Of a stretch of 64,000 nt of DNA, positions 17,807-35,786 are shown piece after piece. Location: positions 32,001 to 96,000 of the IMG/VR virus record IMGVR_UViG_3300023109_003600. One strand, written 5' to 3'. Both the position numbers and the translations under genes were made by a program. The DNA comes from a virus. Below the pieces are notes generated by a model, which searched no databases, was not told where the DNA came from, and worked only from the letters and a program-made list of their open reading frames with translations. The number at the start of each line of letters is the position of its first letter. Within the stretch, counting starts at the first letter, position 1.

Positions 17807-17815
17807 ATGTATCAT

Positions 17816-18550
17816 ATGATTCCTTTATTTAAATCTCACTATAGTATTGGCAAAAGCATCCTTAGGCTAGGTGGAGGACAAGGTATATTCGACATAGCAA
17901 AAGATTTAAATTTAAAAAAAGTAGTGCTAGTAGAAGATAGCTTAACAGGATTCCTTGAAACCGCAAAAGTCAGCAAGGAGTATAAAATAGACTTTATATT
18001 TGGGTTAAGAATCTCCTTATGCGAATCAGATCTTTCGGCAGAAACAAATGATTGTCATAAAATTATAGTTTTTGCAAAAAACGGAGAAGGTTGCAAGCTA
18101 TTAAATAAGATCTACACAAAAGCTTTCTCTAATGGCAATCAAAGTATTTTAATCAAAGATCTAAAAAAACTATGGAATGAAAAATTATTAAAACTTTCAA
18201 TCCCTTTTTATGATTCTTTTATTTTTAACAATACATTATTATTTTCAAAATGCATGCCCTCTTTTGATTTTACAGAACCCACTTTTTTCTTAGAAGAAAA
18301 CGGATTACCATTTGATAACATCATCAAAGAAGAGGTTAAAGAATTTTGCAAAAAACAAAGCATGAAAATGGAAAACGCTAAAACAATTTACTACACAAAA
18401 AGAGAAGACTTCTCAGCTTTTCAAACTTATAAACTAATATGTAATAGGTCAGGATGGAGGGCAAAATCGACTTCGCTAGAGTGCCCGAACCTAGACCACT
18501 TCGGCAGCCAAGATTTCTGCGTAGAGAGCTTTGAACTTGCAACATTATAA
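17816..18550 (+). CDS. Stand-alone PHP domain of DNA polymerase III alpha
   Basis: PLFKSHYSIGKSIL, LVEDSLTGF, FIFGLR, FAKNGEG correspond to the DnaE N-terminal PHP domain. Confidence 0.8.
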   Translation: MIPLFKSHYSIGKSILRLGGGQGIFDIAKDLNLKKVVLVEDSLTGFLETAKVSKEYKIDFIFGLRISLCESDLSAETNDCHKIIVFAKNGEGCKLLNKIYTKAFSNGNQSILIKDLKKLWNEKLLKLSIPFYDSFIFNNTLLFSKCMPSFDFTEPTFFLEENGLPFDNIIKEEVKEFCKKQSMKMENAKTIYYTKREDFSAFQTYKLICNRSGWRAKSTSLECPNLDHFGSQDFCVESFELATL

Positions 18551-18555
18551 AAAAA

Positions 18556-19197
18556 ATGAACAATAACTTATTAAGATTCAACTCTCAACAAAAATATATT
18601 ATATTTGATTACGAAACCTGTAATTTAAATCTTGGTAGTACAGAAAATAAACCTTGGCAACTTTCATTTATCGTAGCTTCTAATAATAAAATTCACGAAA
18701 CTCATGATTACTATTTGCGCTGGGAAGACTTAAATATTTCTAAAGATGCTGCGAAGATTACTGGTTTCTCAAAATCAAAATACGACAAGCTTGCTGTATG
18801 CCCCAGAAAAGCTTTAGATCACTTTGAATCTTTCTTATATAATAAAAATTATATTCCAGTGGGCCACAACATATTAGGCTTTGATGTTTACATTCATAAT
18901 ATACATAGAAAACTCTTAAACAAGAAACCTGATTACAGCTATATCAATAGAGCTATAGATACAAATTGCCTAGCCAAGGGAATTGCTAAACAATTAACTA
19001 AGCCTCAAAGCAAAAGCACAATTGCTTGGCAGTATAGCTTAAATCAAATCATAGAAAGGGGGCTAAAAACAAGTTTGCAAATGTGTGCGAAAAAATACAA
19101 GATAGATTTTGACCCAACTAAGCTTCATGATGCACTGTATGATATTAAAATTAATCACCAAGTACTTAACAAACAGTTATGGGAGGTAGAAGTATGA
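18556..19197 (+). CDS. DEDDh 3'-5' exonuclease (DnaQ/epsilon-like)
   Basis: FDYETC, GHNILGFD, LHDALYD. Confidence 0.9.
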   Translation: MNNNLLRFNSQQKYIIFDYETCNLNLGSTENKPWQLSFIVASNNKIHETHDYYLRWEDLNISKDAAKITGFSKSKYDKLAVCPRKALDHFESFLYNKNYIPVGHNILGFDVYIHNIHRKLLNKKPDYSYINRAIDTNCLAKGIAKQLTKPQSKSTIAWQYSLNQIIERGLKTSLQMCAKKYKIDFDPTKLHDALYDIKINHQVLNKQLWEVEV

Positions 19198-21749
19198 GTT
19201 TCCTTGAAGAATTTGAAACGTATAAGGATTTTTCTCCTCCTGGAGTACGTTTACCAGAAATCATAATTGAAAAAGAGAGGTATAAATCTTTAGGCCTCAA
19301 AGAAGACTCAACCAATTTTCAATTTTTAACTTCGCTATGCTCAGCAGGCTTAAAGGATAAAGCTATAGATGCCAATAAGCTTAAATTATATAAATCAAGA
19401 GTAAAAGAAGAATTACTGATCCTTAAAGATTTAGGTTTTATTGATTACATTTTACTCAACTGGGATGTTCTTAATTTTTGTCATGAAAATAACATACCTA
19501 CTGGCCCAGGAAGAGGTTCTGCAGCAGGTAGTTTGGTTTTATATTTAATAAGGGTGACGCAAGTAGACCCAATAAAAAACGATTTGTTTTTTGAGAGATT
19601 TGTATCAAAAAGCAGAGCCAAGAAAACAGAACACAATGGAATCACCTATTTAGACGGAAGTTTACTAGCGGATGTAGATAATGATATCGCATACGAACAT
19701 AGACAAACAGTAATAAAATATATCGAAGATAAATATCCAGCAAGGACATGTAAAATTCTAACACTAAATACCTTAAGCTCTAAATTATGCATCAAGGAGT
19801 GCGGCAAACTAGTAGGTAATTTAACAGAGCAAGAGGTGAACGAAGTAAGCGATTTTATTCCGAAGAAATTTGGCAAAGTTCTTTCAATAGATGAATCAAT
19901 AATTGAAAGTGAAAAATTTAAAGATTGGTCAGAAAAAAATAATAATATTATTAACATAGCTAGAAAAATTCACGGTTTAAACAAAAATACTGGAGTACAT
20001 CCGAGCGGAATAGCAATATCTCATCAAAAACTTGAAGACATTTGCCCGCTACAAACTAATTCAGAAGGAGATGTGATAAGCGGTTATGATATGAATTGGG
20101 TTGCAGAATTAACAGTTAAGTTTGATATTCTTGGTCTAAGAACCTTAAGTGTAATATATAACACTTGTAAGTCTTTAGGGATTGATCCCCAAGATATAAA
20201 AATGGATGATAAAATCATTTATGATAGCCTGCAAGACCTAATTTCCCCACAAGGAATTTTTCAAATTGAAGCTGACACAGACTTTAGAGTATGCAAAAAA
20301 ATCAAACCAAGGAATCTTGAAGAGCTTAGCGCAGTAATTGCCATAGCAAGACCTGGAGCTCTTGATTTTTTAAGTAATTATACTGACTACAGGGAGACAG
20401 GTCAAAGTCAAAGTGTGCATCAAGTATTTGATGAAATCCTTCAAACAACAGCAGGAATACCATTATATCAAGAACAGCTTATGCAAATGGCCGTTAAGAT
20501 CGGTTTTACCTTAGACGAATCAGAGCAGTTGCGTAGAATTGTAGGAAAGAAAAAGACAGAATTAATGCCAGAATGGCAAGAAAAAATTAAAGACAAGATA
20601 AAAGAAAATAACTTGCCCGCAGAAGCAGGAGAAATCCTATGGAGGGTGGCGGAAGATAGCGCGAATTATTCGTTTAACAAGTCGCACAGTATTAGTTATG
20701 CAATTCTTTCTGCTTGGACAGTTTACTTAAAATTCAAACATCCCCAAGAATTTTTCTTATCTTTACTTAAAATGAGCAAATTTGAACCATCCCCTCAAGA
20801 AGAGATTAATAAAGTTAGTCAAGAGCTATCTAGATTTAAATTCTCCCTACTACCTCCTGATTTAGCTAGGTCTGATATAGACTTTTCTATAGAAGGAAAA
20901 GATATTAGATTTGGATTAAACAGCATAAAAGGGGTTAGTGAAAAATCCTTTAAATCCTTACAAAGCTTTCGAGATTCAGACACCCCTAATAAATATGATA
21001 TTTTTATTGCGGCAAAACAGGCTGGTTTAAATATAGGAGCGCTCTCATCTTTAATTCAAGCAGGAGCCCTATCTAGCTATAAAACAAATAGATCGCTACT
21101 GGTCTTAGAGGCTCAATCATTTAATTTATTAACAGAGAGGGAGAAGCGAAACTTTTATCAATTAGGGGAAAAATATAACTTTAGTTTGCTCAAGGCTATT
21201 TCAGACGCTAAAAAAGGAATACTTATGTCGGACGATGGCAAGAGGCTAATGACAGAAAAGCGATTCCAGACATTTAAGAAAAAGTTTGATTCTTATAAAA
21301 AAATCTACGACAAGAATAAATCTCACGAGCTCTTTGCGAACTGGTACTTTGAGAATAAACTATTAGGTTATTCCTACACATGTAAGCTAAACTCAATATT
21401 TAAGTCTAACAATCACACCATAAAAGACACTCAAGATTTTAGAGAGCTAGCTAAAGATCAGTCAGATGTCTTTGTTGGAACTGTTTTTGATATTATTAAA
21501 AGAAAATCCAGAAACGGAAATGAATATATTAAAGCTACAATTATAGACGAAGTAGGATCAATGGATATTATGATGGGTGACTTTGGCAACAGAAAAGCTT
21601 TATCAAAATACACAGAATCAGGAGGAATTATTCCTCAAAAAGGAAATATTATAACAACAACAGGTAGAAAAGGAGACGACATTTTATTCGCAAACAATAT
21701 AAATATACTAGATCACAAAATTTATATGAAACTCAGTGATATAGATTAG
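19194..21749 (+). CDS. dnaE: DNA polymerase III alpha catalytic part lacking the PHP domain
   Basis: GPGRGSAAGSLV, FFERF, DVDND, HPSG, KFDILGL, YQEQLM, YSFNKSHS, IRFGL. Confidence 0.95.
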   Translation: MSFLEEFETYKDFSPPGVRLPEIIIEKERYKSLGLKEDSTNFQFLTSLCSAGLKDKAIDANKLKLYKSRVKEELLILKDLGFIDYILLNWDVLNFCHENNIPTGPGRGSAAGSLVLYLIRVTQVDPIKNDLFFERFVSKSRAKKTEHNGITYLDGSLLADVDNDIAYEHRQTVIKYIEDKYPARTCKILTLNTLSSKLCIKECGKLVGNLTEQEVNEVSDFIPKKFGKVLSIDESIIESEKFKDWSEKNNNIINIARKIHGLNKNTGVHPSGIAISHQKLEDICPLQTNSEGDVISGYDMNWVAELTVKFDILGLRTLSVIYNTCKSLGIDPQDIKMDDKIIYDSLQDLISPQGIFQIEADTDFRVCKKIKPRNLEELSAVIAIARPGALDFLSNYTDYRETGQSQSVHQVFDEILQTTAGIPLYQEQLMQMAVKIGFTLDESEQLRRIVGKKKTELMPEWQEKIKDKIKENNLPAEAGEILWRVAEDSANYSFNKSHSISYAILSAWTVYLKFKHPQEFFLSLLKMSKFEPSPQEEINKVSQELSRFKFSLLPPDLARSDIDFSIEGKDIRFGLNSIKGVSEKSFKSLQSFRDSDTPNKYDIFIAAKQAGLNIGALSSLIQAGALSSYKTNRSLLVLEAQSFNLLTEREKRNFYQLGEKYNFSLLKAISDAKKGILMSDDGKRLMTEKRFQTFKKKFDSYKKIYDKNKSHELFANWYFENKLLGYSYTCKLNSIFKSNNHTIKDTQDFRELAKDQSDVFVGTVFDIIKRKSRNGNEYIKATIIDEVGSMDIMMGDFGNRKALSKYTESGGIIPQKGNIITTTGRKGDDILFANNINILDHKIYMKLSDID

Positions 21750-21766
21750 TGTATCTCATTATGAAT

Positions 21767-24202
21767 ATGGAACTTAAACCCAACTTTACACCCCGAGCGC
21801 AAGAAGTTATTGCAGCTTCAAGAAAGCTAGCTTTAAACTATAATAAAAGAGTAGTTAACGAAGAACATTTATTTCTTGCTTTAGCGAAAGTAGATACTCA
21901 ATCGCTAGAAACTCTCTTTTCGGCATTTGATCTAGAAAGAAAAAATCTTATACTTTTTATATCCAAAAAGCTTAAAAAAAATACATCAGCGCCAACAAAA
22001 AAAAATTACTTCTCAGGAGAATTTAAATCAATCCTAGGGGGAGCGGTATTAGAAGCCGAAAAACACGAGCATGACTACATAGGAGTACAACATATACTAC
22101 TTTCAGTGTTCAAAAAACAAGACAATACAATTTGTCTTTTTTTTATAGAAAACGGAATCAGTGTCGAGTCATGCATATTAACAATTAGATCTCAATTTTT
22201 AATTAGTTCTTCTTCTGAAACTTTAGAGTCTAGCAGGCTATCCTCAGAATCAAATTATATCCCTAAAATAGAAGAAGAATATAAAGAAGGTCTAAAGTCT
22301 AATTTCTTTCATTGCATGAACACAAAAGCAATGCAAGGAAAATATGACGAAGTTATTGGTAGAGATCAAGAAATTAAAGATATTTCGGAAGTATTATGCA
22401 GGAGAAGTAAAAATAATCCTATACTCCTAGGGGATGCAGGAGTTGGAAAAACTGCAGTTGTAGAAGGTTTATCTCAAAAAATAGTAGAAGGTTCTGTAAC
22501 AGAATTTCTGTACAAAAAAAGAATTTATTCGCTAGATATGGCAAGCATGATTGCTGGCACAAAATATAGAGGGCAATTTGAAGAAAGGCTCAAAAATACT
22601 ATGGAAGAAATCCAGAAAGATAAAGACGCGATTATTTTTATAGACGAAATTCACTCAATTGTAGGCGCGGGAAGCGCTGAGGGAACTATGGACGCAGCAA
22701 ATATACTAAAACCAATGCTAGCAAGGGGCGATATCATGTGCATAGGAGCGACCACGCAAGAAGAATACAGAAAAACTATATTAAAAGATGGAGCATTAGA
22801 TAGAAGATTTCAACCGATCCATATTAAAGAGCCAACGCCTTCGGAATGTAAAGAAATATTAAACGGTCTCAAAGAAAAATATGAATCATTTCATCAAGTT
22901 AAGTATGAGGAAAATGTTGTAGAAAATTCCATCAAACTGTCCTCAAGGTTTATCTTAGATAGACAGCTTCCAGATAAAGCCATAGACTTACTAGATCAAG
23001 CTGGATCCAAAGCTAAAATTTCAGCATTTAAGCGTCCTGAAGAAGCGTTACAAATAGAAGAAGAGTTAAACGGTCTATACGAAATAGAGTCTACTTCTAG
23101 CGAACCTAATGTAATTATGAAGAAAAGAGATGCCTTAATGAAAAAATATCAAAATATAATTGAAGGTTGGGCAGAACAATCCACTTTAAAGAAAATTTTT
23201 GTAACAAATAAAGAATTATTTCAAGTAGTATCCCAAAAAACTGGGGTACCTATCGAAGATATCTCGAGCTCTGATACAGACAAATTTCTAAATTTAGAAA
23301 ACTCCTTAAAAAATGTCATCATCGGCCAAGACCCAGCAATTGAATCTATTTCAGAAACACTTATAAGGAACAAAGCAGGCTTAAGGGATGAACAAAAGCC
23401 TATAGGTAGTTTTTTATTTTTGGGTAGTAGCGGTGTAGGTAAAACTTACCTAGCAAAACAGGTGGCGAGTTTAGCGTTCGGAGACTCTAGTGATTTAATA
23501 CATATAGATATGTCAGAGTTTTCAGAGCAAGCTTCAACGGCTAAATTTGTAGGGGCATCGCCAGGATATATAGGTTTTGAGTCATCTGGAGCAATTACAG
23601 AAAGAGTAAGAAAGAAACCTTATTCAGTTTTATTGTTTGATGAGGTAGAAAAAGCTCACGAAGACGTGACGAACTTGCTACTACAGATACTAGAAGAAGG
23701 TAGGCTAACAGATAGTTCAGGAAGAACAATTTCCTTTAGAAATGTAATCGTAATCATAACAGGAAATATTGGGTCAAATTTCATGCAAAAGAATAATTCA
23801 GTAGGATTTATGCCTTCAAATTCGGAAGAAGACATTAATCAAAAGGTTATCGCAGAAGCAAGAAAAAAACTAAAACCAGAGCTCATCAATAGGATAGAGT
23901 CTATAATAAACTTCAAGAATTTCGAAGAAGCTCATTTGAAAAAAATCTCTGGACTGGAATTAGAAAAAAGCATGTCAAGAATAGAGGGCTCTATGGATAA
24001 AATTAATATAAAACCTTCGGTTTTTTCTTACATTGCTCAAAAAGCGCTAGAGCTCAATGATGGAGCGAGGCCAATCAAAAATATAATTAAAAAAGAAGTA
24101 GAGAACCCTTTGGCAAAATTAATTCTTCAAAACAAATCCTACGAGTCTAAAACACTAAGTATATCCGTAGTAAAAAATTGCATAAAAGTTTTATTGACTT
24201 AG
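21767..24202 (+). CDS. clpC: ClpC-type AAA+ unfoldase
   Basis: Clp-N repeats (NFTPRAQ), two Walker A motifs (GDAGVGKT, GSSGVGKT), LPDKAIDL, FDEVEKAH, SVGF ClpP-docking loop. Confidence 0.9.
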   Translation: MELKPNFTPRAQEVIAASRKLALNYNKRVVNEEHLFLALAKVDTQSLETLFSAFDLERKNLILFISKKLKKNTSAPTKKNYFSGEFKSILGGAVLEAEKHEHDYIGVQHILLSVFKKQDNTICLFFIENGISVESCILTIRSQFLISSSSETLESSRLSSESNYIPKIEEEYKEGLKSNFFHCMNTKAMQGKYDEVIGRDQEIKDISEVLCRRSKNNPILLGDAGVGKTAVVEGLSQKIVEGSVTEFLYKKRIYSLDMASMIAGTKYRGQFEERLKNTMEEIQKDKDAIIFIDEIHSIVGAGSAEGTMDAANILKPMLARGDIMCIGATTQEEYRKTILKDGALDRRFQPIHIKEPTPSECKEILNGLKEKYESFHQVKYEENVVENSIKLSSRFILDRQLPDKAIDLLDQAGSKAKISAFKRPEEALQIEEELNGLYEIESTSSEPNVIMKKRDALMKKYQNIIEGWAEQSTLKKIFVTNKELFQVVSQKTGVPIEDISSSDTDKFLNLENSLKNVIIGQDPAIESISETLIRNKAGLRDEQKPIGSFLFLGSSGVGKTYLAKQVASLAFGDSSDLIHIDMSEFSEQASTAKFVGASPGYIGFESSGAITERVRKKPYSVLLFDEVEKAHEDVTNLLLQILEEGRLTDSSGRTISFRNVIVIITGNIGSNFMQKNNSVGFMPSNSEEDINQKVIAEARKKLKPELINRIESIINFKNFEEAHLKKISGLELEKSMSRIEGSMDKINIKPSVFSYIAQKALELNDGARPIKNIIKKEVENPLAKLILQNKSYESKTLSISVVKNCIKVLLT

Positions 24203-24222
24203 CGCGTATATAGGTGTACTAT
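24194..24222 (+). promoter_or_regulatory. sigma70 promoter of tmRNA
   Basis: TTGACT-17-TACTAT. Confidence 0.75.
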
Positions 24223-24246
24223 ACTTATAGTTCTTTAACAGTTTAT

Positions 24247-24680
24247 GGGGGTGTTCTGGATTCGACTGAAGTTGAATTCTAACACCGCAAGAGGGAGATT
24301 GCACTACGGCTCCCCCATCAATGTGCAAAAGCTTTACATGGCTCTAAAAAACATGTTAGAGCTCTCGGCTTCAAAAATCGTATCGCTGCAAAGCGCTTCG
24401 GTTATAAGAGCCGTAAGCTCGCCCTAGCAGCATAGGCTGCTAGCCTCTTACTTCTTGACGCAGATACAGAGGTAAAGAGGTCATCAATCTGCAAAACAGA
24501 AAAAGTTTATCTGTATCAAAAACTGTACCGCTGAGTATTCGGAGGCCCTAGTTCTAGGTGAATAATTGAAACAGAGGGTTGGATGTTAATATCAAAACCA
24601 TAAAAAAAATTAACTATACTTGTAGACGTGTTAGCTTGAAGGCTATCAGGACGCGGGTTCAACTCCCGCCACCTCCACCA
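24247..24680 (+). ncRNA. ssrA: tmRNA (SsrA), 434 nt
   Basis: GGGGGTG/CACCTCC-ACCA acceptor stem with G3.U70, GGATTCGAC, T-arm GCGGGTTCAACTCCCGC, pseudoknot 1 (GGGAG/CTCCC and TTGCAC/GTGCAA), tag frame ending LALAA-TAG in hairpin CTAGCAGC-ATAG-GCTGCTAG. Confidence 0.97.
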
Positions 24681-24721
24681 TTTTTTAATCATAAAACCAC
24701 AAACAAGTGGTATTATATAAT

Positions 24722-27004
24722 ATGAAAATATTATTTACCATAATTTTTATTGCTGCATCAAGCCTTGCAGGCGCAACCGTACCGACCCTCTTCTTCCAAG
24801 ACGGCAGATCCTTGGAAGCTAATATCATTGAAGCAAATTTCACACACGCCTTGATTGAAAGACGAAGAGATTTGCAGCGCTTTAGAATTGCGATCAACTC
24901 TTTAACAGAAGATAATCAAGCGTTTATAAAAAATAATTTTACACCCAGTCACCAAGCTTTACCCAAATTTAAAAAACCCTTAAACGAAAAAGATCTGCTT
25001 AGTCACTCTAGATATATAGATACTTTAATCGAAAGAAAACTTAGATCATATAATCTACAGCCAAACAAAGAAGCGGAAGACGAAGTTTTTCTGCGAAGAA
25101 CCTATCTTAAGATTATAGGCAGAACACCCTCCCTTTTAGAAGTTAAAGGGTTTGAAGAAAATAGAAGCAAAAACAAAAGGCGAGAGCTTATAGATTCTCT
25201 TTTAGGTAGCGAGGGTTATGTTAGCCATTGGTTTAATTTTTGGGCAGATATTTTAAGAATAAAAGATAGATTAAACAATAGAGTATCAGGCATACCTTAT
25301 AAAAATTATGTCAAGAAGTTTGTATCCAACAATCAACCTTATGACGAATGGGTAAGGGAATTGCTTTCTTCTTCTGGGCCTCTATGGAAAGAAGGTAGCG
25401 AAGGAGTAAGTTATTTTGCAAGAGATGTCAATATGCCTCTTGATAACATGTCAAACACTGTTAGAATTTTCTTAGGAACAAGTCTGGAATGCGCGCAATG
25501 CCATGATCATCCTTTTGACAGATGGACGCAAAAACAGTTTTATGAAATGGCTGCATTTACAAGCGGGTCAACAAATCTTAGGAGAAAAAACGTACCAAAC
25601 TTGGGCAAATTCAATCAATTAGTCCGTGAAGAACAGAAAAGGTTAGAGCAAGAAGGAGATCCAAATAAATCTAGAAGATTAAGGGATGCATCACGATCAG
25701 TGCAAGACATCCTACAAACAGGATTAGATAGTTTAGGTTCGGGAAAAATTAATTTACCGAAAGATTATCAATATGATAATGCGAAACCAAATGAGCAACT
25801 ATCAGGCAAAACTATTTTTGGATTAGATGTAGAGATTAAAACTAAAGCTCCAGAATCAGGCACTAGAGAAATCTACGCCAACTGGTTAGCTTCAGAATCT
25901 AACCCTAGATTTACAGCGGTAATAGTTAATAGACTATGGAAGGAAGTTTTTGGGTTGGCATTAATTGAGCCGCTAGATAATATGTTTGATGACACGATAC
26001 CTACAGATATAAAACTACAGCTACACCTCGAAAAAGTTATGATTGCCTTAAATTATGATTTAAAAGAATTTTTAAGAATATTATATAATACAAAAACTTT
26101 TCAGAGAGCTTCTGTTATTAGAGATGTTATACCGCGAGATGAAAAAGATACAGTCATGCCTATAGAAGTAAAGTGGATTATAGCGGGGCCAAATACTGAA
26201 AAGCAATCTCAAAATGCTGTACCATTCTTCTACCAAGGGCCTTTAGTTGAAAGGATGAGTGGCGAACAAATTTGGGACTCTTTAGTTAATTTAACTTTTA
26301 ATAATATAGATTCAAGAAAATTACAGCAGAACACAAAAGGATATGAAGACTTCGATAGATTCTCAAGCATGACTGGAGAAGAGCTTTTTGAAAATATTAT
26401 GAATAAACTCAACAACAAAGAAAATGCAGGGTCAAAAATAGCGACAAAATTTACAGAACCTATTAATACAGAATGCCCTATAAAACCAGGCAGGGAAATC
26501 GACCCAACCTTATTAGCCTTAAATGAAGATGGTCAGACAGTAGCGTTTTGTTGTGAATCTTGCCTAGACAAATTCAAATCTCAAAAGAAACAAAAAAAAG
26601 ATGACTACAAACAAAACTACACTAAGGACAGGAATTCAGTCAGGGCGTCCGAACTAAGCTCTCCAGCACCCATAGGGCACCTCATAAGGGAGTTTGGCGG
26701 CTCAGACAGAGAACAGATAGAAAACTCGCACAAACAAGCTTCAGCAACCCAAGTACTTAATTTATTAAATGGTTTTGTAGAAACAAGGTTATTAAAAAAC
26801 AAAAATTCAGAGATAGTAAAGCAAATCAAATCACAAAAAAATTTAGAAGACAAAATTAAAGTTGCGTTCAAATCAATCCTAAATAGAGAAGCTTCAATAT
26901 CAGAATTAAAATTATTTAAATCGTCACTTAAACAGGGTAAAGAGGTATATAAAGAGATAGTATGGACGCTGGTAAACAGTCACGAATTTATATTTATTAA
27001 ATAA
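24722..27004 (+). CDS. Secreted DUF1549 + DUF1553 (PSD1) protein with N-terminal SHD1-like domain and Cys-rich YHS-like insert
   Basis: Signal peptide; FLRRTYLKIIGRTP, WADILR, FLGTSLECAQCHDHPFD, VNRLWKEVFG, WTLVNSHEF; CPI..VAFCCESC. Confidence 0.9.
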   Translation: MKILFTIIFIAASSLAGATVPTLFFQDGRSLEANIIEANFTHALIERRRDLQRFRIAINSLTEDNQAFIKNNFTPSHQALPKFKKPLNEKDLLSHSRYIDTLIERKLRSYNLQPNKEAEDEVFLRRTYLKIIGRTPSLLEVKGFEENRSKNKRRELIDSLLGSEGYVSHWFNFWADILRIKDRLNNRVSGIPYKNYVKKFVSNNQPYDEWVRELLSSSGPLWKEGSEGVSYFARDVNMPLDNMSNTVRIFLGTSLECAQCHDHPFDRWTQKQFYEMAAFTSGSTNLRRKNVPNLGKFNQLVREEQKRLEQEGDPNKSRRLRDASRSVQDILQTGLDSLGSGKINLPKDYQYDNAKPNEQLSGKTIFGLDVEIKTKAPESGTREIYANWLASESNPRFTAVIVNRLWKEVFGLALIEPLDNMFDDTIPTDIKLQLHLEKVMIALNYDLKEFLRILYNTKTFQRASVIRDVIPRDEKDTVMPIEVKWIIAGPNTEKQSQNAVPFFYQGPLVERMSGEQIWDSLVNLTFNNIDSRKLQQNTKGYEDFDRFSSMTGEELFENIMNKLNNKENAGSKIATKFTEPINTECPIKPGREIDPTLLALNEDGQTVAFCCESCLDKFKSQKKQKKDDYKQNYTKDRNSVRASELSSPAPIGHLIREFGGSDREQIENSHKQASATQVLNLLNGFVETRLLKNKNSEIVKQIKSQKNLEDKIKVAFKSILNREASISELKLFKSSLKQGKEVYKEIVWTLVNSHEFIFIK

Positions 27005-27016
27005 AAAAAAAGAAAA

Positions 27017-28300
27017 ATGAACATAAACGAATTAGGAAGAAGAGAATTTATAGCTCAAGCAGCAAAAAGTTGCTTGGGAGTAGGCTTGATGCCAATGGCA
27101 GGAGCTTATATACATAATAGCGTCGAGGCACTACAGCCAGGAGTTAGACCAGCAACAGCCCGTCATGTTATATATTTAAATATGGCAGGAGCAATGTCAC
27201 ACCTAGACACCTTTGGTCCAAAACCAGAAGTCCCAGATATTCAAGGTCCGACAAAATCAATCGCAACTACAGCAGATGGAATTCTATTATCGGAAAACTT
27301 ACCGAATACTGCGCAGTTTATGCATAAAGCTTCCGTCATTAAAACTATGGTATCTAGCCAGGGAGCGCACGAACAAGCTAGCTATCTCATGCACACTAGC
27401 TATCTCAAGAGAGGTACAATTGTTCATCCTACTTTTGGAAGTTGGGTTTCAAAGCTGGCAGGCTCAATCAATACTACCGTACCTGCAAATATTAAAATTG
27501 GAGGTGGAGGAGGAGGAGCTGGTTTTCTTGAATCAAAATATGGTGCTCTGCCAATAAATAATCCTCGCTCTGGTTTGGCTAATAGTAAAATGGCTTCTTA
27601 TTTAGATTTAGAAACCTTTCAAGGCAGAATTTCTTTGGCAGAGAAATTAAATCAAAACTTTTCTACAGATTTTCAATTAAAACAAGTAAGAGCTTATTCT
27701 GATTTATACAGGGATGCAGTTAAGCTAATGAATAGCGATGACTTAAATGCTTTTGATATAACTAAAGAGTCGCAGCAAACAAGCGAACTTTATGGTGCTA
27801 CTAATTTTGGGCAAGGTTGCCTTTTAGCAAGAAGGTTAGTTGAAAATGGCGTTCGTTACGTTGAAGTTACAAGAGGTGGATGGGATACGCATGATAATAA
27901 CTTTGAAAGAGTTGCGGCAAATTGCGCGGATATTGATCAAGCTTTAAGCGGTTTGCTTTACGATTTAGATAGACGAGGACTTTTAAGCGAAACGCTTGTA
28001 GTGTTGACTTCTGAATTTGGAAGGACTCCAAACATCAACGGTAGAGACGGAAGAGATCATTGGCCATATTGCTTTACGGCTTTTATGGCGGGAGGAGGAA
28101 TCAAAGAAGGCTTCTCTTACGGAGAAAGTGACAAGGCAGGTCGAAGCCCAGTGGAAGGAAAAGGCATTAAGCCAGAAGACTTAAATGCTACTATAGCATA
28201 CGCCTTAGGGTTGTCAATAAATAGTCAGCAGTACTCCCCCTCAGGAAGACCTTTTACGATAGCGAATAAGGGAGAACCTTTACTTGACGTTATTTCTTAA
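27017..28300 (+). CDS. DUF1501 family protein (Tat-exported)
   Basis: RREFI twin-arginine signal, GAMSHLDTF, GQGCLLARRLVE.GVRYV, GWDTH, SEFGRTP, GRDHW, AGGG. Confidence 0.93.
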   Translation: MNINELGRREFIAQAAKSCLGVGLMPMAGAYIHNSVEALQPGVRPATARHVIYLNMAGAMSHLDTFGPKPEVPDIQGPTKSIATTADGILLSENLPNTAQFMHKASVIKTMVSSQGAHEQASYLMHTSYLKRGTIVHPTFGSWVSKLAGSINTTVPANIKIGGGGGGAGFLESKYGALPINNPRSGLANSKMASYLDLETFQGRISLAEKLNQNFSTDFQLKQVRAYSDLYRDAVKLMNSDDLNAFDITKESQQTSELYGATNFGQGCLLARRLVENGVRYVEVTRGGWDTHDNNFERVAANCADIDQALSGLLYDLDRRGLLSETLVVLTSEFGRTPNINGRDGRDHWPYCFTAFMAGGGIKEGFSYGESDKAGRSPVEGKGIKPEDLNATIAYALGLSINSQQYSPSGRPFTIANKGEPLLDVIS

Positions 28301-29150: not shown

Positions 29151-29179
29151 TTGACTTATTTTTTTAAAAATAGTAATAT
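29151..29179 (+). promoter_or_regulatory. sigma70 promoter
   Basis: TTGACT-17-TAATAT. Confidence 0.7.
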
Positions 29180-29192
29180 ATACTTATATCAA

Positions 29193-29729
29193 ATGAATTT
29201 ACTAGAAAACACAAAAACATATTTAGTAGGACACATGCAATATCTTAGCGGAAGAAATTGGCGCGAAGAAATAACAGGGCAATTAAGCTCCTTAAATATA
29301 ACATGTTTTGATCCATACAAAAAACCATTCATGAAAGATGTTGAAGAAGACGAAGCCTCTAGGCTTGAAATGGAAACATGGATGAAGACCAAACAGTATG
29401 ATCGAGTTACGGATAGAATGAAAACCGTAAGAGCATACGACCTAAACTTAGTTGATCGTTCAGATTTTATTATTGCCCATCTTGTTCCAGATGTAGCTTC
29501 GTGGGGCAGTGCAGAAGAAATAGTTACAGCAGTACGAATGAAAAAACCTATTTTTATTAGCATGGAAGGTGGAAAGTCAAAGACACCTTTATGGATGCTA
29601 GGAATGCTACCTCATAAATATATTTATAATAGTCTTGACGAAGTAGTAGAAATGTTGTATGCTATAGACAATGGAAACAAACCGATAGATTCAGATAGGT
29701 GGAGATTACTACAGAAACAATTCAGATAA
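29193..29729 (+). CDS. Nucleoside 2-deoxyribosyltransferase-like protein
   Basis: YLVGHM..WRE, FDPY, YDL..VDRSD, GSAEEI, KKP. Confidence 0.7.
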   Translation: MNLLENTKTYLVGHMQYLSGRNWREEITGQLSSLNITCFDPYKKPFMKDVEEDEASRLEMETWMKTKQYDRVTDRMKTVRAYDLNLVDRSDFIIAHLVPDVASWGSAEEIVTAVRMKKPIFISMEGGKSKTPLWMLGMLPHKYIYNSLDEVVEMLYAIDNGNKPIDSDRWRLLQKQFR

Positions 29730-35496: not shown

Positions 35497-35770
35497 TTTG
35501 AGGTTTAACCCAATCTTGCAAGAGAAGGGAATCATCGTTTAACTGCCTAAAGTTAATCCTCAAAAAACTTTGGAAGGGCTTATAATCCTTCCTGTGGGTG
35601 ACTGAAATAGCCTGTTGTGAGCGGGCTAAGGTATACAATTCTCTGTGGTAGAGTGCCAATGGACAAATGTCTGAGGCAGGGTTCCCAACCCTAATTGTAG
35701 TGCGAGTAGGAAAATTATGAACTGATGTTCACACCAAAAGTTGAGAGTATACAGTAATCTCTCCCCACAC
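35497..35770 (+). ncRNA. Highly structured non-coding RNA (possibly manA-motif related)
   Basis: GC-richer ORF-free stretch with nested stems, e.g. TTTGAGG/CCTCAAA, GGAAGG/CCTTCC, TGTGGG/CCCACA, TAGCCTGT/GCGGGCTA, TACAATT/AATTGTA, GAGAG/CTCTC; followed by a T-rich tract. Confidence 0.75.
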
Positions 35771-35786
35771 TTATTTTTTAAACCCC

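What the first reader, a model, noticed from the sequence alone, without database searches (positions are those of the whole stretch)
21767..24680. Phage tmRNA with a 31-aa polybasic tag, encoded directly after a phage ClpC: a candidate viral tag-and-degrade system
Seen: a complete 434-nt tmRNA. Pseudoknot 1 (GGGAG/CTCCC, TTGCAC/GTGCAA) is followed by TTACAT, which places the resume codon at GGC 24340. The frame reads GSKKHVRALGFKNRIAAKRFGYKSRKLALAA-TAG (24340-24435): 31 residues, 10 Lys/Arg and no acidic residue. Established: typical bacterial tags are about 10 aa and acidic in the middle (e.g. ANDENYALAA), and terminal LAA is the Clp degron. The adjacent ClpC keeps a VGF ClpP-docking loop. 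Inference: the phage may rewire trans-translation so that rescued proteins carry a tag read by its own unfoldase or bypassing host adaptors. Alternatively the basic peptide may affect exit-tunnel transit or nucleic-acid binding.
Basis: partly seen in the sequence, partly recalled or inferred. Interest (0 to 1): 0.85.

Follow-up and report, generated by a model that had tools for sequence, protein, structure and literature searches.

The report
Phage tmRNA with long basic tag
An uncultured marine phage carries its own ribosome-rescue RNA (tmRNA) that adds a 31-residue, strongly positive tail to unfinished proteins, and it sits beside a phage ClpC unfolding enzyme; the RNA and tail are real and conserved, but a working link between them is not shown.

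Summary
OBSERVATION CONFIRMED. Window 24247-24680 (+) is a full-length one-piece tmRNA (Rfam RF00023, 102.6 bits, E 5.9e-39). It lies in a 121.6-kb IMG/VR virus record.

The resume codon GGC at 24340 gives a 31-residue tag with 10 Lys/Arg, no acidic residue and an ALAA end. Support:
- It lies 11 nt after a covarying pseudoknot 1, with A at -4.
- ARAGORN makes the same call on the closest relative.
- 17 of 26 variable tag sites are third codon positions.

The tmRNA belongs to a large family seen here almost only on viral contigs. I read 74 tags, all 19-41 residues, ranging from strongly basic to strongly acidic. Sixty bacterial tmRNAs from two phyla gave 8-10-residue, non-basic tags.

INTERPRETATION PARTLY SUPPORTED.
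- For: every phage ClpC keeps the ClpP-docking loop (22 of 22). 11 of 11 near-complete tmRNA-bearing relatives carry ClpC, none ClpP or SmpB.
- Against: ClpC also sits beside short-tag and acidic-tag tmRNAs, and its N-domain charge does not track tag charge.

Nothing shows that ClpC reads the tag. This scan has met the same family on other DNA. I class it as a new variant of a known kind.

The parts
17807..21749 (+). Split replicative polymerase module read as three ORFs: PHP domain (17807-18550), RNase T-like exonuclease (18556-19197) and DnaE core (19179-21749). ClpC follows it directly.
   Evidence: Pfam PHP, RNase_T, DNA_pol3_alpha/finger/HHH_6. The order PHP-Exo-DnaE-ClpC recurs in L010, L057, L059, L093 and L102.
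21749..24202 (+). Phage ClpC-type AAA+ unfoldase, 817 aa from GTG 21749 (ATG at 21761 and 21767). The ClpP-docking VGF is at residues 685-687.
   Evidence: Pfam AAA, AAA_lid_9, AAA_2, ClpB_D2-small and a weak Clp_N match. Best solved match is B. subtilis ClpC 3j3s, 629 bits in one stretch, with VGF aligned. Walker A/B, pore-loop Tyr and Gly-Phe are invariant in 20 phage ClpCs.
24194..24222 (+). Sigma-70-like promoter of the tmRNA gene, overlapping the last codons of clpC.
   Evidence: 9 of 12 hexamer matches with a 17-nt spacer. This is a consensus match only: the region holds no more such sites than its shuffles. A -35-like element occurs upstream of 22 of 74 family members.
24228..24246 (+). 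Conserved 5' leader directly before the mature tmRNA 5' end. It is probably a processing context for RNase P (inferred).
   Evidence: A near-identical roughly 19-nt leader precedes most family tmRNAs, whatever lies further upstream (read by eye, not counted).
24247..24680 (+). One-piece tmRNA gene, 434 nt, with an encoded CCA end followed by a T-run.
   Evidence: RF00023 at 102.6 bits, E 5.9e-39, model 1-374. The acceptor stem with G3-U is invariant in 11 of 11. Metatranscriptome contigs lie on it.
24293..24328 (+). Pseudoknot 1: stem 1 pairs 24293-24297 with 24310-24314, and stem 2 pairs 24299-24304 with 24323-24328.
   Evidence: 100% of cells are paired in both stems, and 5 pairs show changes on both sides.
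24335..24342 (+). Frame-setting upstream pentamer (U-A at -5/-4) and the resume codon GGC (24340-24342).
   Evidence: Sequence, Rfam alignment, the A86 rule (PMC2481249), and the ARAGORN call on L024.
24340..24435 (+). Tag template of 31 codons plus TAG. The tag has net charge +10 and ends in ALAA.
   Evidence: Translation. Third-position bias is 17 of 26 variable sites. The tag is conserved in 9 other viral loci and one MAG contig.
24424..24443 (+). Helix 5 hairpin with the stop codon in its loop.
   Evidence: An 8-bp stem. It is paired in the 8 basic-tag sequences of A1. The 3 acidic-tag sequences have another sequence there.
24457..24496 (+). Pseudoknot-2 region, used as the family signature in the collection scan.
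   Evidence: The pattern scan of viral contigs found 116 stretches. Of the 73 new loci among the 80 listed, 66 hold a tmRNA of this family.
24707..28300 (+). Downstream neighbours: a DUF1549/DUF1553 protein (24707-27004) and a DUF1501 protein (27017-28300). They are context, not part of the rescue system.
   Evidence: Pfam. The same pair, or DUF1501 alone, lies downstream of the tmRNA in L012, L015, L017, L049, L059, L079, L080, L098, L108 and L113.

Best explanation
This is a working, phage-encoded one-piece tmRNA of an uncultured clade of large marine tailed phages.

SHOWN
- The RNA has every structural hallmark of tmRNA.
- Its 31-codon tag frame is under protein-level selection.
- It is held as a discrete RNA-library contig in marine metatranscriptomes.
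- It belongs to a family that I found almost only on viral contigs, whose tags are all long (19-41 residues).

INFERRED
- It is transcribed from its own sigma-70-like promoter and trimmed at a conserved leader.
- It is charged with Ala by the host AlaRS through the G3-U pair and delivered by host SmpB and EF-Tu, since the phages encode no SmpB.
- It enters ribosomes stalled on broken mRNAs in the infected cell and frees them.
- It adds Ala plus the 31-residue polybasic tail.
- The ALAA end is the ordinary ClpP-pathway degron, so tagged fragments are most likely unfolded and degraded through the host's ClpP.
- The clade-wide phage ClpC keeps its ClpP-docking loop but comes without a phage ClpP. 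It probably docks on that same host ClpP.

OPEN
Whether ClpC itself reads the long tag body, or host ClpX/ClpA do the reading through the ALAA end.
For: tmRNA identity and tag:
- Rfam 102.6 bits over the full model.
- Pseudoknot 1 and acceptor covariation, G3-U in 11 of 11.
- Resume codon fits the -4 A rule and the distance from pseudoknot 1.
- ARAGORN gives the same call on L024.
- Codon-position bias 6/3/17, p 8e-4.

Phage origin:
- The window lies in the middle of an IMG/VR virus record with even GC of 30-38% across it.
- rIIA/rIIB homologues at E 4.7e-100 and 2.7e-62.
- manA RNA in the window.
- A large-terminase N-domain in 9 of 12 clade records searched.

Family:
- 116 viral stretches carry the pseudoknot-2 signature.
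- 77 of 84 loci examined hold the tmRNA. 74 tags were read and 48 are distinct, all 19 residues or longer.

Bacterial baseline with the same tools:
- Tags of 8-10 residues, net charge -2 to 0, in 29 of 30 and 30 of 30 loci from two phyla.
- A scan of 185,579 species genomes for the tag-end pattern found one tmRNA. It lies on a 47-kb contig that carries genes of this phage clade, inside a MAG whose contig of over 1 Mb has an ordinary 11-residue tag.

RNA libraries:
- In run X5 a 460-nt contig at depth 125 lies on 24255-24678 with no differences, and has Illumina-adapter-like ends on both sides.
- A contig of run X19 (another study) ends at the same 24678 followed by adapter.
- Runs from 4 studies hold contigs on the tmRNA.

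ClpC:
- ClpP-docking loop kept in 22 of 22.
- ClpC in 11 of 11 near-complete relatives. ClpP and SmpB each in 0 of 12.
Against: - No experiment or structure ties the tag to any protease.
- Contigs from RNA libraries cannot prove transcription, strand or ends (tool caveat).
- The window's own record has no terminase or capsid match. It is therefore a fragment despite CheckV's 90% estimate, and its lack of ClpP and SmpB proves little by itself.
- CheckV's '100% complete' for the relatives rests on references that may themselves be partial. All these records are linear.
- The host is unknown, so the host's SmpB, AlaRS and ClpP are assumed.
- ARAGORN fails on the window's own copy, for a reason I did not find.
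- ClpC/tmRNA co-occurrence may be plain shared ancestry within one clade.
Confidence: 0.7

Rival explanations
1. Dedicated orthogonal pair. The phage ClpC, docked on host ClpP, specifically recognises the long polybasic tag body. Fragments rescued by the phage tmRNA are then routed to a phage-controlled protease and bypass host adaptors.
For: - ClpC ends 44 nt before the tmRNA in the window. It lies directly upstream in L024, L008, L080, L102 and L108.
- ClpC is present in 11 of 11 near-complete tmRNA-bearing relatives.
- 6 of 13 ClpC-anchored fragments hold a tmRNA.
- The docking loop is conserved in 22 of 22 with no phage ClpP in this subgroup (0 of 8 relatives' records; none in the window's own record).
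- Every family tag is long enough to act as an unstructured initiation tail.
- Recalled, not checked here: Mycoplasma's long tag is matched to Lon instead of ClpXP, a precedent for tag-protease retuning.
Against: - The same ClpC family sits beside acidic, short-basic and long-basic tags alike.
- N-domain charge does not track tag charge (rho -0.22, p 0.32). The N-domains of the window, L024 and L025 (all with +10 tags) are neutral to basic.
- No adaptor of the MecA, ClpS or SspB families is in the record.
- ClpC is the last gene of a conserved replication module. Its position may be inherited synteny.
Confidence: 0.2
2. The tag body serves something other than degradation. The polybasic (or, in sister phages, polyacidic) tail changes the fate of rescued fragments or of the ribosome. 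Possibilities: nucleic-acid or ribosome binding, aggregation or sequestration, slowed passage through the exit tunnel, or escape from a host sensor or adaptor that reads normal SsrA tags. The ALAA end is then a leftover or a back-up.
For: - The peptide is under selection along its whole length, not only at the ALAA end. Synonymous-only changes occur at codons 8-10, 12-14, 17, 19, 21 and 25.
- One tmRNA scaffold carries tags from net +12 to -11. That looks like diversification of the tag body.
- No family tag is shorter than 19 residues.
Against: - 52 of the 74 tags read end in ALAA. All 74 end in -AA or -VA, as bacterial degradation tags do.
- No test of binding or localisation was possible.
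- Opposite charges in sister phages argue against one shared electrostatic target.
Confidence: 0.15
3. Host DNA or an assembly artefact. The tmRNA, and the PVC-type genes after it, would be a bacterial chromosome piece: a prophage flank at an ssrA attachment site, or a chimeric contig.
For: - ssrA is a common prophage integration site.
- DUF1549/DUF1553/DUF1501 are typical bacterial genes. The closest named DUF1501 relatives (80% and 76% identity) are labelled as Verrucomicrobiota MAG proteins.
Against: - GC is even across the junction.
- All large ORFs around it are on one strand, inside a phage replication module.
- The same tmRNA family recurs on 77 viral loci next to the same phage genes.
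- The tmRNA is full length with its own promoter, not a 3' fragment.
- No bacterial chromosome with this tag end was found among 185,579 species.
Confidence: 0.03
4. Decoy or inhibitor. The phage RNA competes for host SmpB or ribosomes to shut down host trans-translation, as reported for the TLD-only RNA of mycobacteriophage DS6A. Productive tagging would not be its role.
For: The phages encode no SmpB, so the RNA must draw on the host's pool. The DS6A precedent is in PMC4131195 and PMC11915505 (passages).
Against: The RNA keeps a complete, frame-conserved tag template with the resume context and an in-loop stop. A pure decoy would not need these.
Confidence: 0.05

Closest known systems
Bacterial one-piece tmRNA (SsrA, Rfam RF00023), E. 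coli type with a 10-residue tag
   Same: - tRNA-like domain with G3-U and CCA.
- Pseudoknot 1 followed, after about 11 nt, by the resume codon with A at -4.
- Stop codon in the helix-5 loop.
- Tag ending in ALAA.

   Different: - The gene is encoded by a phage.
- The tag is three times the commonest bacterial length of 10 aa (PMC11915505, passage).
- The tag has net charge +10. In the 60 bacterial loci sampled the range was -2 to 0.
- No SmpB gene accompanies it.
Known phage tmRNAs: mycobacteriophage Bxz1 group, Bacillus phage G, and the two-piece tmRNAs of pelagimyophages and OM43 phage Melnitz (PMC4131195; PMC9004378)
   Same: - A lytic-type large phage carries a complete ssrA without smpB.
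- The idea that a phage might tag proteins for recycling was already voiced for Melnitz (PMC9004378, passages).
   Different: - This one is one-piece.
- It has no blastn match in 50,697 deposited phage records at E 1e-8 or better.
- Its family has uniformly long, charge-extreme tags.
- The family travels with a phage ClpC.
- The passages I read say nothing of either feature. I did not see those papers' supplementary tables.
B. subtilis / S. aureus ClpC (with MecA or McsB) working with ClpP
   Same: - Two AAA+ rings, a short middle domain and an N-domain.
- A VGF-type ClpP-docking loop.
- Best solved matches are 3j3s and 6em8.
   Different: - About 38-42% identity at most to any deposited phage-record homologue.
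- It is the last gene of a phage replication module.
- No ClpP, MecA or ClpS is in the record.
- The N-domain is only weakly Clp_N-like (31 bits).
Mycoplasma long SsrA tag read by Lon
   Same: A tag much longer than usual whose body, not only its end, is matched to a different protease. This is a precedent for tag-protease retuning.
   Different: That case is a bacterial system with a demonstrated protease switch. Here no protease preference has been shown, and the end remains ALAA.

Membership tests
tmRNA (Rfam RF00023) | Covariance-model score above the curated gathering score over the full model | tested here: met
   102.6 bits against 47, model positions 1-374, E 5.9e-39. Confirmed on the whole record.
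tmRNA (Rfam RF00023) | tRNA-like domain: acceptor stem with the G3-U alanine identity pair, T-arm and 3' CCA | tested here: met
   All 7 acceptor pairs are paired in 11 of 11 sequences and G3-U is invariant. The CCA is encoded at 24678-24680.
tmRNA (Rfam RF00023) | Pseudoknot 1 just upstream of the tag template, supported by covariation | tested here: met
   Both stems are 100% paired, with 2 of 5 and 3 of 6 pairs showing double changes. Slid controls give 37-48% paired.
tmRNA (Rfam RF00023) | Tag reading frame with a conserved A four nucleotides before the resume codon, ending in a hydrophobic Ala-rich degron | tested here: met
   U-A at -5/-4 before GGC 24340 (rule from PMC2481249). 31 codons ending in ALAA, then TAG in a hairpin loop. 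Third-position bias 17 of 26.
tmRNA (Rfam RF00023) | Works with SmpB | not testable with these tools
   No SmpB (PF01668) in the record or in 12 relatives. Host SmpB is assumed and the host is unknown.
tmRNA (Rfam RF00023) | Present as a stable RNA | tested here: inconclusive
   Contigs from RNA libraries of 4 runs in 4 studies lie on it. One is identical over 424 nt at depth 125, with adapter-like ends on both sides. Contigs cannot prove transcription or ends.
ClpC-type class I Clp/Hsp100 unfoldase | Two AAA+ modules with intact Walker A/B and pore loops | tested here: met
   Pfam AAA plus AAA_2. Lys/Thr of both Walker A motifs, Asp/Glu of both Walker B motifs and the pore-loop Tyr residues are invariant in 20 phage ClpCs.
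ClpC-type class I Clp/Hsp100 unfoldase | ClpP-docking hydrophobic-Gly-Phe loop in D2 (absent from ClpB) | tested here: met
   VGF at 685-687 aligns to B. subtilis ClpC's VGF. The tripeptide is present in 22 of 22 phage ClpCs.
ClpC-type class I Clp/Hsp100 unfoldase | Short middle domain, in contrast to ClpB's long coiled coil | tested here: met
   ClpC chains match in one continuous stretch (residues 12-803). ClpB and Hsp104 chains match in two stretches.
ClpC-type class I Clp/Hsp100 unfoldase | Clp_N double-repeat N-domain used for adaptor or phospho-arginine binding | tested here: inconclusive
   Only one Clp_N stretch, at 31.3 bits against a cut-off of 20.7. The binding residues were not examined.
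SsrA tag-and-degrade system (tag + unfoldase + ClpP, with or without an adaptor) | The unfoldase recognises the tag | not testable with these tools
   No assay was possible. The charge co-variation test gave rho -0.22, p 0.32.
SsrA tag-and-degrade system (tag + unfoldase + ClpP, with or without an adaptor) | A ClpP peptidase is available to the unfoldase | tested here: not met
   PF00574 was found in 0 of 1 (own record), 0 of 12 and 0 of 8 records of the 31-33-residue tag group. The phage would have to use host ClpP, which is inferred. Within the family, only 3 of 5 records of the 38-residue tag group have a ClpP gene.
SsrA tag-and-degrade system (tag + unfoldase + ClpP, with or without an adaptor) | Tag-specific adaptor (SspB, MecA or ClpS type) | tested here: not met
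   PF04386, PF05389 and PF02617 all give no match in the record. An unrecognised adaptor is not excluded.

The most novel reading that the evidence does not exclude
A whole clade of large marine phages runs an orthogonal quality-control circuit. The phage tmRNA writes a long, lineage-specific 'address' (polybasic here, polyacidic or shorter in sister phages) onto every protein whose synthesis is aborted in the infected cell. The phage ClpC, plugged into the host's ClpP through its conserved docking loop, reads that address. The phage would thereby take over both the marking and the destruction of truncated proteins, recycling amino acids or removing defence proteins.
Probability: 0.15. Interest if true: 0.85.

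Novelty: new variant of a known kind. Interest (0 to 1): 0.6.

Why it matters
tmRNA tags are usually treated as short, near-universal degrons.

Here a large tmRNA family, found almost only on viral contigs, has no tag shorter than 19 residues. On one RNA scaffold it has evolved tails from +12 to -11 net charge. It travels with a phage unfoldase that keeps its ClpP plug but brings no ClpP.

That makes a concrete question testable with simple reporters: can a virus re-address the products of ribosome rescue to a protease it controls?

It would also offer ready-made orthogonal degradation tags. Even under the plain reading, it shows that abundant marine phages invest in ribosome rescue during infection.

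Tried and rejected
ARAGORN. It finds no tmRNA or tRNA in the window or the whole record at default settings. Relaxed thresholds give only spurious permuted calls elsewhere. It does call the closest relative, L024, and six further family members. For two of those it picks a later resume codon than I do. I did not find why the window's copy is missed.

Alternative resume codons. The +1 frame starting at 24341 ends in a non-degron tail and would put the conserved A at -5. In-frame Ala/Gly codons further down lack A at -4 (read). Both rejected.

First ClpC search. A single-protein search of viral contigs found no relative. An alignment-based search later found 551, most of them outside this clade.

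Deposited phages. There is no blastn match to the tmRNA. DnaE reaches at most 34% identity and ClpC at most 42%. No cultured relative or host was obtained.

Complex prediction. ClpC residues 1-165 with the 31-residue tag gave no verdict (score 0.00, controls not run). This is evidence neither for nor against binding.

Charge co-variation between the ClpC N-domain and the tag. Not significant. In one search two loci gave the wrong ORF (DnaE), which one search corrected. The n of 22 includes one N-terminally truncated ClpC (L046, counted as 0) and two near-identical records (L155, L057).

Read laying. In the four RNA runs the last 500 nt or so of clpC had no cover, and the gene after the tmRNA had cover in X5 only, at depth about 5.

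Host clade. The single genome-contig scan went to the tag-end pattern. I therefore obtained handles only for three bacterial genomes and sampled two phyla.

Structural genes. Searches of the own record for T4 gp23 and for the terminase C- and N-domains found nothing. The gp23 control rang nowhere, so that search says nothing. Phage_sheath_1 found nothing in 12 records, and Terminase_6C nothing in 5 relatives.

Literature. Four searches found no paper describing this family, its long charged tags or a ClpC pairing. I read passages only of PMC9004378, PMC4131195, PMC2481249, PMC7162821 and PMC11915505. Supplementary files were not consulted; Table S1 of PMC9004378 and the tmRNA database tables could list such tags.

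Tag calling. Tags were read by a script rule. One 25-residue call (L054) is probably a mis-start of a 19-residue tag. 36 of the 116 stretches were not listed and were not examined.

Full report
WHAT IS THERE

A cmscan of the window against Rfam finds a full-length tmRNA at 24247-24680 on the + strand (RF00023, 102.6 bits against a gathering score of 47, E 5.9e-39, model 1-374). It also finds a manA RNA at 35572-35773. The window is bases 32001-96000 of a 121,649-base IMG/VR virus record, and the record holds this one tmRNA. ARAGORN reports nothing in the window or the record.

Anatomy, read:
- The acceptor strand starts at 24247 and the encoded CCA ends at 24680, followed by a T-run.
- Pseudoknot 1 spans 24293-24328.
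- Eleven nucleotides later comes GGC at 24340, preceded by U-A at -5/-4.
- The frame runs 31 codons to TAG at 24433-24435, which lies in the loop of an 8-bp hairpin.
- A sigma-70-like promoter match lies at 24194-24222 inside the end of clpC. It is a consensus match only: the region has no more such sites than its shuffles.

IS THE TAG REAL?

Four independent lines place the resume codon at 24340.
1. In E. coli the frame is set four nucleotides after the nearly invariant A86, and the resume codon lies about 12 nt after pseudoknot 1 (PMC2481249, passages). Only GGC 24340 fits both.
2. The Rfam alignment puts the model's resume codon on the same triplet.
3. ARAGORN calls the closest relative (L024, the record of L017) with the resume codon at nucleotide 94 and a 31-residue tag that differs at one residue.
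4. Among the seven sequences with 31-codon tags (window, L017, L014, L015, L008, L018, L020), the 26 variable sites fall 6, 3 and 17 on codon positions 1, 2 and 3 (binomial p 8e-4). Twelve variable codons are synonymous, seven are not, and one is a stop variant. I left out L007 and L019 because their tag lengths differ.

Variants seen in RNA-library contigs follow the same pattern (table 3). On an 11-sequence alignment both stems of pseudoknot 1 are paired in every sequence, five pairs show changes on both sides, and the G3-U alanine identity pair is invariant. Slid controls pair at only 37-48%. The tag has 10 Lys/Arg and no acidic residue.

IT IS PHAGE DNA, BUT A FRAGMENT

- GC is even at 30-38% across the window, with no step at the tmRNA.
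- Nearly all large ORFs run on the + strand.
- The record ends with rIIA and rIIB homologues (E 4.7e-100 and 2.7e-62).
- The genes before the tmRNA form a split replicative polymerase (PHP, exonuclease, DnaE core) followed by ClpC. The genes after it are a DUF1549/DUF1553 protein and a DUF1501 protein.
- The record has no match to terminase or T4 capsid families, so CheckV's 90% is too generous.
- Nine of 12 clade records searched have a large-terminase N-domain in ORFs of 618-665 aa.
- No deposited phage is close: there is no blastn match to the tmRNA, DnaE reaches at most 34% identity and ClpC at most 42%.

A LARGE, ALMOST PURELY VIRAL tmRNA FAMILY WITH LONG TAGS

- Exact-pattern scans of IMG/VR with the 5' 20-mer, the tag end and a pseudoknot-2 signature gave 10, 9 and 116 stretches. 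Only 80 of the 116 were listed.
- Of 84 loci examined, 77 hold a tmRNA of this family. I could read 74 tags, of which 48 are distinct.
- Tag lengths: 19-21 residues in 47, 25 in one (probably a mis-call), 31-33 in nine (net +10 to +12), 34 in seven (net -9 to -11), 38 in eight (net +8 to +9), and 40-41 in two (acidic). None is shorter than 19.
- The basic and acidic types share one scaffold, with 78% mean column identity.
- The 31-residue type equals the 20-residue type plus an 11-codon insert that echoes the neighbouring motif (alignment gap in L019).

As a baseline with the same tools I sampled two bacterial phyla.
- The 30 best tmRNAs of 101 genomes in the phylum of G011 gave tags of 8-10 residues in 29 of 30 loci, net charge -2 to 0.
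- The 30 best of 41 genomes in the phylum of G137 gave 9-10 residues in 30 of 30, net -2 to 0.
- Each set also gave one extra, overlapping alternative call.
- The tmRNA database paper gives 10 aa as the commonest tag length (PMC11915505, passage).

A scan of one genome from each of 185,579 species for the degenerate tag end found three stretches, and only one is a tmRNA. That one lies on a 47-kb contig of a 4.9-Mb MAG labelled Halobacteriovorax.
- The MAG holds three tmRNAs. The one on its contig of over 1 Mb has an ordinary 11-residue tag.
- The 47-kb contig and a second small contig carry this phage clade's genes (DnaE 67%, ClpC 41%, the conserved deoxyribosyltransferase-like gene 68%).
- Their GC is 41-43%, against 35-38% for the other sampled stretches of the MAG.
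- I read them as phage contigs binned with the MAG. This is at most a weak lead to the host.

IS IT MADE?

Twenty public runs hold part of the stretch, six of them RNA libraries. I laid four RNA runs from four studies.
- All four have contigs on the tmRNA.
- In X5 a 460-letter contig at depth 125 lies on 24255-24678 with no differences. Its loose ends on both sides look like Illumina adapter (recognised from my own knowledge).
- An X19 contig also ends at 24678 followed by adapter.
- This fits a discrete, abundant RNA of about the predicted size. Contigs cannot prove transcription, strand or exact ends, so I count it as a moderate hint.

ClpC AND THE TAG-AND-DEGRADE IDEA

The 817-aa protein is a genuine ClpC type.
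- Its best solved matches are B. subtilis and S. aureus ClpC, in one continuous stretch.
- ClpB and Hsp104 match only in two pieces.
- Its VGF aligns to ClpC's docking VGF.
- In 20 aligned phage ClpCs the Walker A/B residues, the pore-loop tyrosines and the Gly-Phe of the loop are invariant.
- All 22 extracted have hydrophobic-Gly-Phe at that position.

Linkage:
- ClpC ends 44 nt before the tmRNA in the window.
- It lies directly upstream in L024, L008, L080, L102 and L108, and 1.4-8 kb away in L059, L093, L046, L057, L115 and L010.
- ClpC is found in 3 of 5 and 3 of 5 fragmentary viral relatives, and in 11 of 12 larger ones. That is 11 of 11 of those rated 90% complete or more.
- Starting instead from ClpC, 6 of 13 clade fragments hold a tmRNA.
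- ClpP and SmpB are each absent from all 12 larger relatives and from the window's record.
- ClpP is absent from 8 of 8 records of the 31-33-residue tag group, but present in 3 of 5 records of the 38-residue group.
- No ClpS, MecA or SspB is in the record.

So a ClpP-docking unfoldase without its peptidase is a fixed feature of the clade, and so is the tmRNA. This fits the use of host ClpP.

Nothing, however, ties ClpC to this particular tag.
- The same ClpC family accompanies acidic, short and long basic tags.
- N-domain charge does not follow tag charge (rho -0.22, p 0.32).
- Co-occurrence within one clade can be simple inheritance.

VERDICT ON MECHANISM

Most likely (0.7): the phage supplies extra tmRNA to keep ribosomes free while mRNAs are being broken in the infected cell. 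It uses host AlaRS, SmpB and EF-Tu. The tagged fragments go to ClpP-based proteolysis through the ALAA end.

The long, selected and diversifying tag body shows that the peptide itself matters to the phage. Whether its reader is the phage ClpC (0.2), some other target (0.15) or only host factors remains open.

NOVELTY

- Phage tmRNAs are known. About 2.3% of deposited phage genomes have one (PMC9004378, passage; PMC4131195; PMC7162821).
- Four literature searches found no description of this family, its tags or the ClpC pairing. I did not see the papers' supplements.
- Earlier notes of this scan describe the same family on at least 12 other genomes, with the same reading.
- I class it as a new variant of a known kind.

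Noticed in passing
L006, L010, L012, L060, L102, L107, L115, L046, L101 (viral loci): Sister tmRNAs on the same scaffold carry 34- to 41-residue, strongly acidic tags (net -9 to -11) that end in -VA or -AA. This is a full charge reversal within one RNA family.
   Followed up: partly
L051, L056, L058, L063, L070, L082, L087, L110 (viral loci); L312-L314: A third tag type of 38 residues (net +8 to +9) starts at an Ala codon. 3 of 5 records of this group that could be searched carry a ClpP-family gene, against none of 8 in the 31-33-residue group.
   Followed up: partly
window 24228-24246 and the same place in most family loci: A roughly 19-nt leader directly before the mature 5' end is conserved across the family. 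It is kept even where the sequence further upstream is the end of a coding gene and no promoter is near. It may be a processing signal.
   Followed up: no
window 24213-24217 and 21749-21753: A GTGTA element lies in the -10 region of the tmRNA promoter and again right at the start of clpC. 25 of 74 family members have it at the matching place upstream of the tmRNA. Earlier notes of the scan suggested a shared promoter class. I did not test this.
   Followed up: partly
whole record G000 (121,649 bases): CheckV rates the record 90% complete, yet it has no terminase or capsid match, while 9 of 12 clade records searched have a terminase. The record is a fragment made mostly of replication, nucleotide and glycan genes.
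   Followed up: partly
window 17807-21749: The replicative polymerase is split into separate PHP, RNase T-like exonuclease and DnaE-core ORFs, in an order conserved across the clade.
   Followed up: no
window 29151-29729: A nucleoside 2-deoxyribosyltransferase-like gene (weak Pfam matches, below cut-off) is the most conserved neighbour of the tmRNA. It is 74-94% identical in about 45 family loci, while ClpC is only 37-61%.
   Followed up: no
window 27017-28300: The phage DUF1501 protein has relatives up to 91% identical in metagenomes. The closest named ones (80% and 76%) are labelled Verrucomicrobiota MAG proteins. This is either a host lead or more phage contigs binned into MAGs.
   Followed up: no
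G011 (MAG labelled Halobacteriovorax): contigs C14, C24, C25, C33: One MAG holds three full tmRNAs with different tags, plus two small contigs carrying this phage clade's genes. The bin is mixed. It may or may not point to the host.
   Followed up: partly
window 24247-24680: ARAGORN misses this tmRNA but calls the 434-nt relative L024 and six other family members. Surveys of phage tmRNAs that rely on ARAGORN alone may undercount this family.
   Followed up: no
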